DNA from: Eledone cirrhosa
Taxonomy: Eukaryota
Length of the DNA stretch: 64,000 nucleotides
Direction: 5' to 3'
Assembly: GCA_964016885.1 (NCBI GenBank)
Contig: OZ024742.1
Location: 212,412,001 to 212,476,000, forward strand
Shown here: in pieces, positions 26,163 through 26,337 of the stretch
Layout: the number at the start of each line of letters is the position of its first letter
Position numbering within the stretch: position 1 is the first letter of the stretch
The notes under the pieces: model-generated
Databases searched by the model: none
What the model was told of the DNA's origin: nothing
Seen by the model: the letters and a program-made list of their open reading frames with translations, nothing else
Program-made: the position numbers and the translations under genes

Positions 26163-26334
26163 AAGTTTTAATATAGATGAGATTCTACAGGACTAGAACT
26201 GTTTCATTCTTTAGAAATCATCAGGAATCTGGGTATCAAAAAAAATACCATACTTATTTTTTGATACCCAGATTCCTGATGATTTCTAAAGAATGAAACA
26301 GTTCTAGTCCTGTAGAATCTCATCTATATTAAAA

Positions 26335-26337
<3 letters not shown>
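26163..26337. repeat. Fold-back inverted repeat (about 83-bp arms, 7-nt loop)
   Basis: 26163-26247 versus 26255-26337, identical except A8 versus T6; abuts a (TA)n run. Confidence 0.97.
26270..26320 (+). ncRNA. Type I hammerhead ribozyme (mirror copy on the minus strand at 26180-26230)
   Basis: agattc CTGATGA t ttc taaa gaa t GAA ACAG ttctagtc CTGT A gaatct: 6-bp stem I, 3-bp stem II, 4-bp stem III, GUA cleavage triplet. Confidence 0.85.

What the first reader, a model, noticed from the sequence alone, without database searches (positions are those of the whole stretch)
26163..26337. Self-masking two-sided ribozyme: a palindrome with an intact hammerhead on each strand
Seen: each arm of an ~83-bp fold-back holds a complete type I hammerhead (plus 26270-26320, minus 26180-26230), with a 4-bp stem III that might allow monomer activity. 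In either direction the antisense arm is transcribed first, so the ribozyme should be trapped in a long duplex. A transcript starting inside the repeat, or editing that opens the duplex, would free it to cut the calcineurin intron. Inference: a Penelope-derived inverted pseudo-LTR or a short non-autonomous ribozyme element that could act as an editing-gated switch.
Basis: partly seen in the sequence, partly recalled or inferred. Interest (0 to 1): 0.75.

Follow-up and report, generated by a model that had tools for sequence, protein, structure and literature searches.

The report
Head-to-head Penelope retrotransposon stump
The mirror-image sequence with a hammerhead ribozyme motif on each strand is real, but it is one of hundreds of such back-to-back stumps of a common Penelope-type jumping gene in this genome, and its ribozymes are predicted to stay locked in a double strand rather than act as a switch for the host gene.

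Summary
In detail: a perfect 81-bp fold-back (26163-26243/26257-26337) carries a type I hammerhead motif on each strand, inside the last intron of calcineurin A (minus strand). It is an insertion stump of a Hydra-clade Penelope-like retrotransposon: two short copies of the element's pseudo-LTR joined head to head, a 66-nt tail on one arm, embedded in (TA)n. The parent (promoter, ribozyme, RT/GIY-YIG frame) is in the same genome. The ribozyme core occurs 7,515 times; tight two-sided palindromes about 365 times; this junction type 55 times. Turn-round points differ between copies, so the mirror is rebuilt at insertion rather than copied from a master element. The editing-gated switch is not supported: the duplex wins by 85 kcal/mol, and still by 19 with all outside adenosines edited. 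Cleavage is untested; no RNA data were available. This layout is published, and this scan found it before on other DNA. The one lead is family-wide: many arms stop at a predicted transcription start with an extra G, which suggests two cDNAs made from capped, uncut RNA.

The parts
26163..26243 (-). Tail-linked arm of the palindrome; parent pseudo-LTR positions 510-590 (L117 numbering); ribozyme sense on the host (minus) strand
26244..26256 (+). 13-nt loop; it is the extra 5' part of the plus-strand arm (parent 496-509); the two arms meet at a short A/T microhomology
26257..26337 (+). Tail-less inverted arm; ends at parent position 589-590, the commonest outer end in the family
26270..26320 (+). 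Type I hammerhead motif, predicted cut 26314/26315; its first two bases are also the parent's intron acceptor and predicted transcription start
26180..26230 (-). Mirror type I hammerhead motif, predicted cut 26186/26185; same strand as calcineurin pre-mRNA
26097..26162 (-). 66-nt one-sided 'tail' (parent 591-656, 5' leader between ribozyme and start codon at 704)
26010..26102 (-). A second, separate 93-bp (TA)n-embedded repeat fused to the tail over a 6-nt overlap; found free-standing elsewhere
25987..26009 (.). Left (TA)n target tract
26336..26367 (.). Right (TA)n target tract
17375..40394 (-). Host intron (23 kb, last intron of calcineurin A catalytic subunit, if no small exon was missed)

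Best explanation
This is a short head-to-head insertion of a Hydra-clade Penelope-like retrotransposon in a (TA)n tract of a calcineurin intron, likely built from two cDNAs during one insertion, and its two hammerheads are predicted to stay locked in an 81-bp duplex. Shown: both arms are 99% identical to the pseudo-LTR of a parent that continues into an RT plus GIY-YIG frame; the layout (outward-facing arms, tail on one arm, TA target) recurs at all sizes from about 120 bp to 12 kb. Inferred: the element's endonuclease nicks both strands of the TA tract; reverse transcription starts at two internal sites (parent ~590 and ~658), which gives a tail on one arm only; both cDNAs run towards the RNA 5' end across the uncut ribozyme and are joined at their 3' ends by microhomology. 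In most short copies they run off at the transcript start; this copy reaches 13-27 nt further upstream, so it likely came from a read-through, intron-retaining RNA. The ribozyme is a normal part of the element, carried twice. In host pre-mRNA the repeat would be a long hairpin, likely an editing substrate, with no regulatory role shown.
For: Parent: pseudo-LTR with TATA (493), ribozyme (523-573), tail, ATG (704) and RT frame at G000:C2:16.676 Mb; window arms map to 510-656 and 496-590 at 99%. Hydra marks RWR, DKT, CxCx5C, CxxC, CxH, YIG, no GxKF (against Craig 2021 section 11). Copy counts 7,515 / 365 / 55, reversed-pattern controls 0. 22 of 30 tail-selected loci carry an adjacent inverted arm, with 21 different junctions. 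11 long outward-facing pairs in 10 of 12 regions examined each have the tail on one arm only (regions partly chosen for being pairs). Two separate cDNAs: in 12 of 22 the tail-less arm reaches further 5' than the tailed arm, and in 7 of 30 longer copies the arms share no sequence at the junction. Fold-back joints also stand in raw DNA reads of another study. Masking: 85 kcal/mol. The layout is described in PMC8557442 and PMC3846280; two internal RT starts and uncut template in PMC11167929.
Against: No cleavage, transcription or editing data. Pfam gives only a sub-threshold GIY-YIG hit (E 0.022) and no RT hit for the parent protein; the clade call rests on motifs and a by-eye match to published Hydra proteins, with no tree. 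Six substitutions are shared by both arms of a copy, which fits one template or fold-back copying as well as two cDNAs. Later deletions at hairpin centres could mimic unequal arms. No read spans this locus. In the palindrome-selected set 8 of 26 copies share one junction, which a small master lineage could also give, although the junction occurs in two sequence subfamilies and sits on a 5-nt microhomology.
Confidence: 0.88

Rival explanations
1. Same element, but the mirror is made by self-priming: one copied strand folds back and copies itself (the model of Arkhipova 2013), not by two cDNAs.
For: Proposed in PMC3846280 (passages). Arms of a copy share rare substitutions in 6 cases among 48 loci compared. 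The cDNA end can pair with its own stem I complement, and a few junctions carry such fold-back letters.
Against: Cannot give a tail-less arm that reaches further 5' than the tailed arm (12 of 22, including this copy), arms without shared sequence at the junction (L055; 7 of 30), or a non-native G on both arms (13 of 49 listed loci).
Confidence: 0.2
2. A non-autonomous palindromic mini-element that is transcribed and re-inserted as a unit.
For: 55 copies of this longer junction type; 8 of 26 near relatives share one junction.
Against: Junctions vary copy by copy; the TATA box is lost in this copy; the same geometry holds up to 12 kb; the shared junction occurs in two subfamilies.
Confidence: 0.06
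3. An editing-gated or promoter-gated ribozyme switch that cuts the calcineurin intron.
For: One hammerhead lies on the host sense strand; an 81-bp duplex is the kind of substrate ADAR edits (established knowledge); family variation keeps the helices (98% of cells paired, one compensatory pair), so the motif is likely a real ribozyme in the parent.
Against: Duplex favoured by 85 kcal/mol unedited, 59 (I read as G) or 19 (I unpaired) with every outside adenosine edited; five core adenosines survive 50% random editing in 3% of molecules. Young, 99% identical to thousands of copies; no sign of locus-specific selection. PLE hammerheads were weak or needed the element's protein in vitro (PMC4209133, PMC11167929).
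Confidence: 0.02
4. Assembly or library artefact (chimeric fold-back).
For: No read or contig spans this locus with unique flanks.
Against: Fixed outer ends, one-sided tails and TA flanks across hundreds of loci; fold-back joints in contigs and raw reads of two studies.
Confidence: 0.03

Closest known systems
Insertion units of endonuclease-bearing Penelope-like elements (Craig et al. 2021, PMC8557442; Arkhipova et al. 2013, PMC3846280)
   Same: Inverted 5'-truncated copy next to a pseudo-LTR, tail on one end only, microsatellite target, TATA plus initiator in the pseudo-LTR, microhomology at junctions.
   Different: Both arms are very short, so only the ribozyme region remains; tail 66-68 nt against the 30-40 bp usually quoted.
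Hydra clade of PLEs, including Hydra-1_Obim, Hydra-1_Amil, Hydra-1_Ajap, Hydra-1_Crog (PMC8557442 section 11 and supplementary files S1, S2)
   Same: C-terminal GIY-YIG without CCHH, DKT, CxCx5C linker, CxxC and CxH, (TA)n target, type I hammerhead; U at both ends of stem II (Ajap, Crog) and the same 4-bp stem III with GUA (Amil).
   Different: A different family: its ribozyme and N-terminal strings are absent from the supplement (0 hits); RWR in place of RWK; a long microsatellite-rich GT-AG intron between the frame and the ribozyme.
PLE hammerheads (Cervera and de la Pena 2014, PMC4209133)
   Same: Type I motif in the pseudo-LTR; dual motifs close together on opposite strands were reported in Schistosoma; intron end at helix I as in Drosophila virilis Penelope; palindromic loop 3.
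   Different: 4-bp helix III and U.U at 10.1-11.1 instead of the conserved G-C.
Poseidon element of Anolis (Frangieh et al. 2024, PMC11167929)
   Same: Two internal RT start sites that define the tail; both target strands cut; uncut RNA used as template.
   Different: There the start sites lie inside the frame; here in the 5' leader. Different clade.
Non-LTR retrozymes (bioRxiv 10.64898/2026.07.22.740005, part 1 of 5 read)
   Same: Non-coding, type I hammerhead, PLE origin.
   Different: Retrozymes are head-to-tail tandem units; this locus is a head-to-head pair.

Membership tests
EN+ Penelope-like element insertion | Sequence belongs to the pseudo-LTR of an RT plus GIY-YIG element | tested here: met
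   99% to L117 496-656; pseudo-LTR runs into the RT frame at C2
EN+ Penelope-like element insertion | Inverted truncated copy at the 5' end, tail on one arm only | tested here: met
EN+ Penelope-like element insertion | Partial-tandem parent (pseudo-LTR, frame, pseudo-LTR) | tested here: met
   three same-strand pseudo-LTRs at C2, two followed by the frame
EN+ Penelope-like element insertion | RT domain recognised by a profile | tested here: inconclusive
   no Pfam RT hit, GIY-YIG E 0.022; YRDD motif and 683 homologues, top ones 40-56% identical
Hydra clade | RWK, DKT, CxCx5C, CxxC and CxH; no GxKF, no CCHH; C-terminal endonuclease | tested here: met
   RWR, DKT, CNCLNKEAC, CDLC, CMH, YIG; GxKF absent; CCHH absent by eye; definition
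Hydra clade | (TA)n insertion preference | tested here: met
Hydra clade | Placement in the RT phylogeny | not tested
   published proteins compared by eye only
Type I hammerhead ribozyme | CUGANGA and GAAA cores, NUH triplet, three helices | tested here: met
   (one compensatory pair in stem I; loop 2 varies; 8 distinct related rows, so weak)
Type I hammerhead ribozyme | G10.1-C11.1 pair | tested here: not met
   U.U here; the same is printed for two Hydra ribozymes and recurs in other families of this genome
Type I hammerhead ribozyme | Match to an Rfam hammerhead model | tested here: not met
Type I hammerhead ribozyme | Self-cleavage | not testable with these tools
   no assay, no RNA run
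Non-LTR retrozyme | Head-to-tail tandem units, each with a ribozyme | tested here: not met
   head-to-head pair at this locus
Editing-gated RNA switch | Editing shifts the fold to the catalytic state | tested here: not met
   folding simulation only

The most novel reading that the evidence does not exclude
The thousands of mini-insertions of this family record how Penelope-like elements build their inverted repeats: two cDNAs, primed from opposite strands of the TA target at two fixed internal sites, copy capped RNA whose hammerhead has not cut, run off at a start site that is at once base 1 of stem I and the intron acceptor, copy the cap as an extra G, and are joined end to end. That would answer an open point in the PLE cycle and imply that the ribozyme is off in the RNA used for insertion.
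Probability: 0.55. Interest if true: 0.5.

Novelty: new member of a known kind. Interest (0 to 1): 0.17.

Why it matters
The locus itself is ordinary: one young transposon stump among hundreds of the same build, with no sign of serving calcineurin. It matters as a warning (two-sided hammerhead palindromes in such genomes are the default product of Penelope insertion, seen here for at least six other ribozyme families in flanking DNA) and as data: the family's fixed ends and junction letters bear on how PLEs form inverted repeats, which Craig et al. 2021 list as unresolved. Such hairpins are also a plausible bulk source of editable double-stranded RNA in introns (inference).

Tried and rejected
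Rfam: no hammerhead; only hairpin-shaped microRNA models below their gathering scores. Pfam and PDB sequence searches did not name the parent RT; BLASTP against another Penelope-type frame of this genome gave one short match (E 2e-5). Run search: no RNA holder listed, so expression, editing and cleavage stay open. Short reads could not span the locus. The 93 bases left of the tail looked like the element's continuation but are a separate repeat. A crude search for a small alternative calcineurin exon in the intron gave nothing. The recurring change at parent position 591 is an alignment run-on into the TA tract and was disregarded (10 of the 47 arm-specific differences). The classifier was offset by two bases and labelled all rows 'other'; rows were read by eye. 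TAL-repeat hits for the 32-residue exon are summed weak repeats and were ignored. The paper on dimer cleavage of PLE hammerheads (Lunse et al. 2017, recalled) is not held and was not read. Searches for a printed twin-priming or cap-G model for PLEs and for an editing-gated intronic hammerhead listed nothing to the point (listings only; subscription papers are not covered).

Full report
Observation. The window holds a perfect 81-bp inverted repeat, 26163-26243 against 26257-26337, with a 13-nt loop; it folds at about -132 kcal/mol on either strand. A descriptor scan of all 64 kb finds two type I hammerhead motifs only, cores at 26276 (+) and 26224 (-), with stems of 6, 3 and 4 bp and a GUA triplet; cuts would fall at 26314/26315 and 26186/26185. 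Stem II is closed by U.U rather than G-C. Rfam finds no hammerhead. The arms face outwards, so the antisense arm comes first in both directions. The host gene is calcineurin A on the minus strand: exons 40492-40395 and 17374-17247 match PP2B catalytic chains (E 6e-9, 1.2e-11) and join in phase, so the repeat lies in a 23-kb last intron.

Boundaries. Searching the 3.0-Gb genome with 26010-26337 gave 1,882 candidates, 40 scored. The shared unit is 26097-26337: the palindrome plus a 66-nt extension on one arm, flanked by (TA)n. Bases 26010-26102 are another repeat, free-standing between TA tracts in most of the 19 other loci inspected, fused here over a 6-nt overlap.

Parent. Longer copies extend upstream through a TATA box and about 460 bp of unique sequence. 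At G000:C2:16.676 Mb this pseudo-LTR runs into a reading frame: TATA at 493, ribozyme 523-573, tail end about 658, ATG at 704 in L117 numbering. That copy's frame is interrupted near 2460; a natural open piece of 597 residues lies in L107. The window arms map to 510-656 and 496-590 at 99%. The protein has YRDD, RWR, DKT, a CxCx5C linker, YIG, CxxC and CxH and lacks GxKF, the marks of the Hydra clade in Craig et al. 2021 (PMC8557442; passages, section 11 and supplement rows seen). It has 683 homologues at E<=1e-10 among 7,997 scored candidates, nearly all unnamed. Against this, Pfam gives only a weak GIY-YIG hit and no RT hit, and no tree was made. The published Hydra ribozymes include two with U at both ends of stem II and one with the same stem III and triplet, so the odd U.U is a clade feature. 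The published octopus family Hydra-1_Obim is a different family.

Copy number. The exact 44-nt core occurs 7,515 times (4,415 forward, 3,100 reverse; control 0). Palindromes with both stem I strands intact and at most 30 nt between them: 365 matches per strand, a few loci counted twice. The longer junction type of this locus: 55, this one included. Outward-facing ribozyme pairs of at least six other families lie in flanking DNA fetched for other reasons.

The mirror is rebuilt at insertion. Of 30 loci chosen by the tail alone (this locus among them), 22 have an adjacent inverted arm, 4 are long copies and 4 are single short arms; the 22 show 21 different junctions. Outer ends are nearly fixed: 589-590 in 28 of 47 and 582-585 in 17 of 47 inverted arms (two others); the tailed arm ends at 654-661 in nearly all. 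The same geometry holds at 1.3-12 kb: 11 outward-facing pairs in 10 of 12 regions examined, each with the tail on one arm (seven regions were chosen because they were pairs). This is the layout described in PMC8557442 and PMC3846280 (passages); dual motifs on opposite strands were noted in PMC4209133 (parts 1-2 of 4 read). PMC11167929 (parts 1-2 of 4 read) showed for another PLE that both target strands are cut, that two internal RT starts define the tail, and that uncut RNA is the template.

How it is likely made (inference). Two cDNAs fit better than self-priming: the tail-less arm reaches further 5' than the tailed arm in 12 of 22 (7 the reverse, 3 equal), and in 7 of 30 longer copies one arm starts in the frame and the other in the pseudo-LTR. 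Against it, six substitutions are shared by both arms among 48 loci, and later deletion at hairpin centres could unbalance arms. Inner ends cluster at 522-533 in 38 of 44 arms, 30 nt below the TATA box in an initiator-like context (consensus recalled). In a hand tally of the 68 distinct TA-joined single arms among the first 100 of 512 rows, 30 have a non-native G before position 523, 19 join directly, 19 keep native C's, and none shows the longer fold-back string. Of the 49 distinct loci in the first 100 rows, 13 have such a G on both arms; that pattern selects arms reaching 523. A copied cap explains this best; a one-base fold-back addition is not excluded. This copy reaches further up (510 and 496), so it likely derives from read-through RNA. 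The parent also has a GT-AG intron from just after the frame to position 524, inside stem I: 28 of 30 copies keep the donor, one has it mutated and one (L140) is spliced exactly (the query favoured retention), and 86 raw reads show the same join. D. virilis Penelope has a like arrangement (PMC4209133).

Is it a switch? The helices are kept in 8 distinct related rows (98% paired, one compensatory pair; weak, related sequences), so the motif is likely a true ribozyme of the element. But the isolated arm is predicted to misfold (catalytic fold P 0.001; the model ignores tertiary contacts), loop 3 has a palindromic core that favours a dimer, and PLE hammerheads were weak or protein-dependent in vitro. 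In the full repeat the duplex beats the best ribozyme-containing fold by 85 kcal/mol. Sparing every adenosine inside the ribozyme and editing all others leaves 59 kcal/mol (I as G) or 19 (I unpaired); random editing at 50% leaves the five core adenosines intact in 3% of molecules. Neither arm keeps the TATA box, and an internal transcript would cut only itself. No RNA run was available.

Artefact check. Fold-back joints with varied turn points stand in contigs of one study and raw reads of another; no record spans this locus.

Verdict. A real but ordinary stump of a new Hydra-clade family. Six earlier notes of this scan reach the same kind of reading on other DNA; they are not independent support. 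My Hydra and two-cDNA readings were noted before that look-up. Searches for a printed cap-G or twin-priming model for PLEs found none (listings only). Interest 0.17.

Noticed in passing
window 26010-26102; L019, L033, L040: Second (TA)n-embedded repeat (596 candidates); longer forms end in their own palindrome holding only the 3' half of a hammerhead-like core. Parent not traced.
   Followed up: partly
L117 2934 to next pseudo-LTR position 524; L140: The parent's microsatellite-rich 3' region is a GT-AG intron ending inside stem I; one exactly spliced genomic copy. Both window arms therefore carry an acceptor-like site (26229-26230 minus, 26270-26271 plus), masked in the hairpin.
   Followed up: partly
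genome-wide: Strand excess of exact ribozyme matches (4,415 vs 3,100; 3,421 vs 1,556) suggests large same-strand arrays; one array of about 1.08-kb pseudo-LTR units lies at C1:83.68 Mb (L118), and raw reads show ~77-nt head-to-tail units.
   Followed up: partly
L084 3336-; L086 3568-: Tandem hammerhead arrays of other families, periods about 466 and 310 bp, retrozyme-like.
   Followed up: no
L018: A subfamily mark is present on the tailed arm only, a hint that two different RNA templates served one insertion (single case).
   Followed up: no
window 38040-38189 (-): U2 snRNA copy (Rfam 93.5 bits) with a shortened 3' half, inside the same intron; likely a pseudogene.
   Followed up: no
window 1-5800; 28336-30560: Broken LTR-type RT/integrase fragments and LINE-type RT fragments (six-frame translation; family names recalled).
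   Followed up: no
window 25590-25960: Very high-copy short repeats next to the locus (read depth orders of magnitude above unique flank).
   Followed up: no
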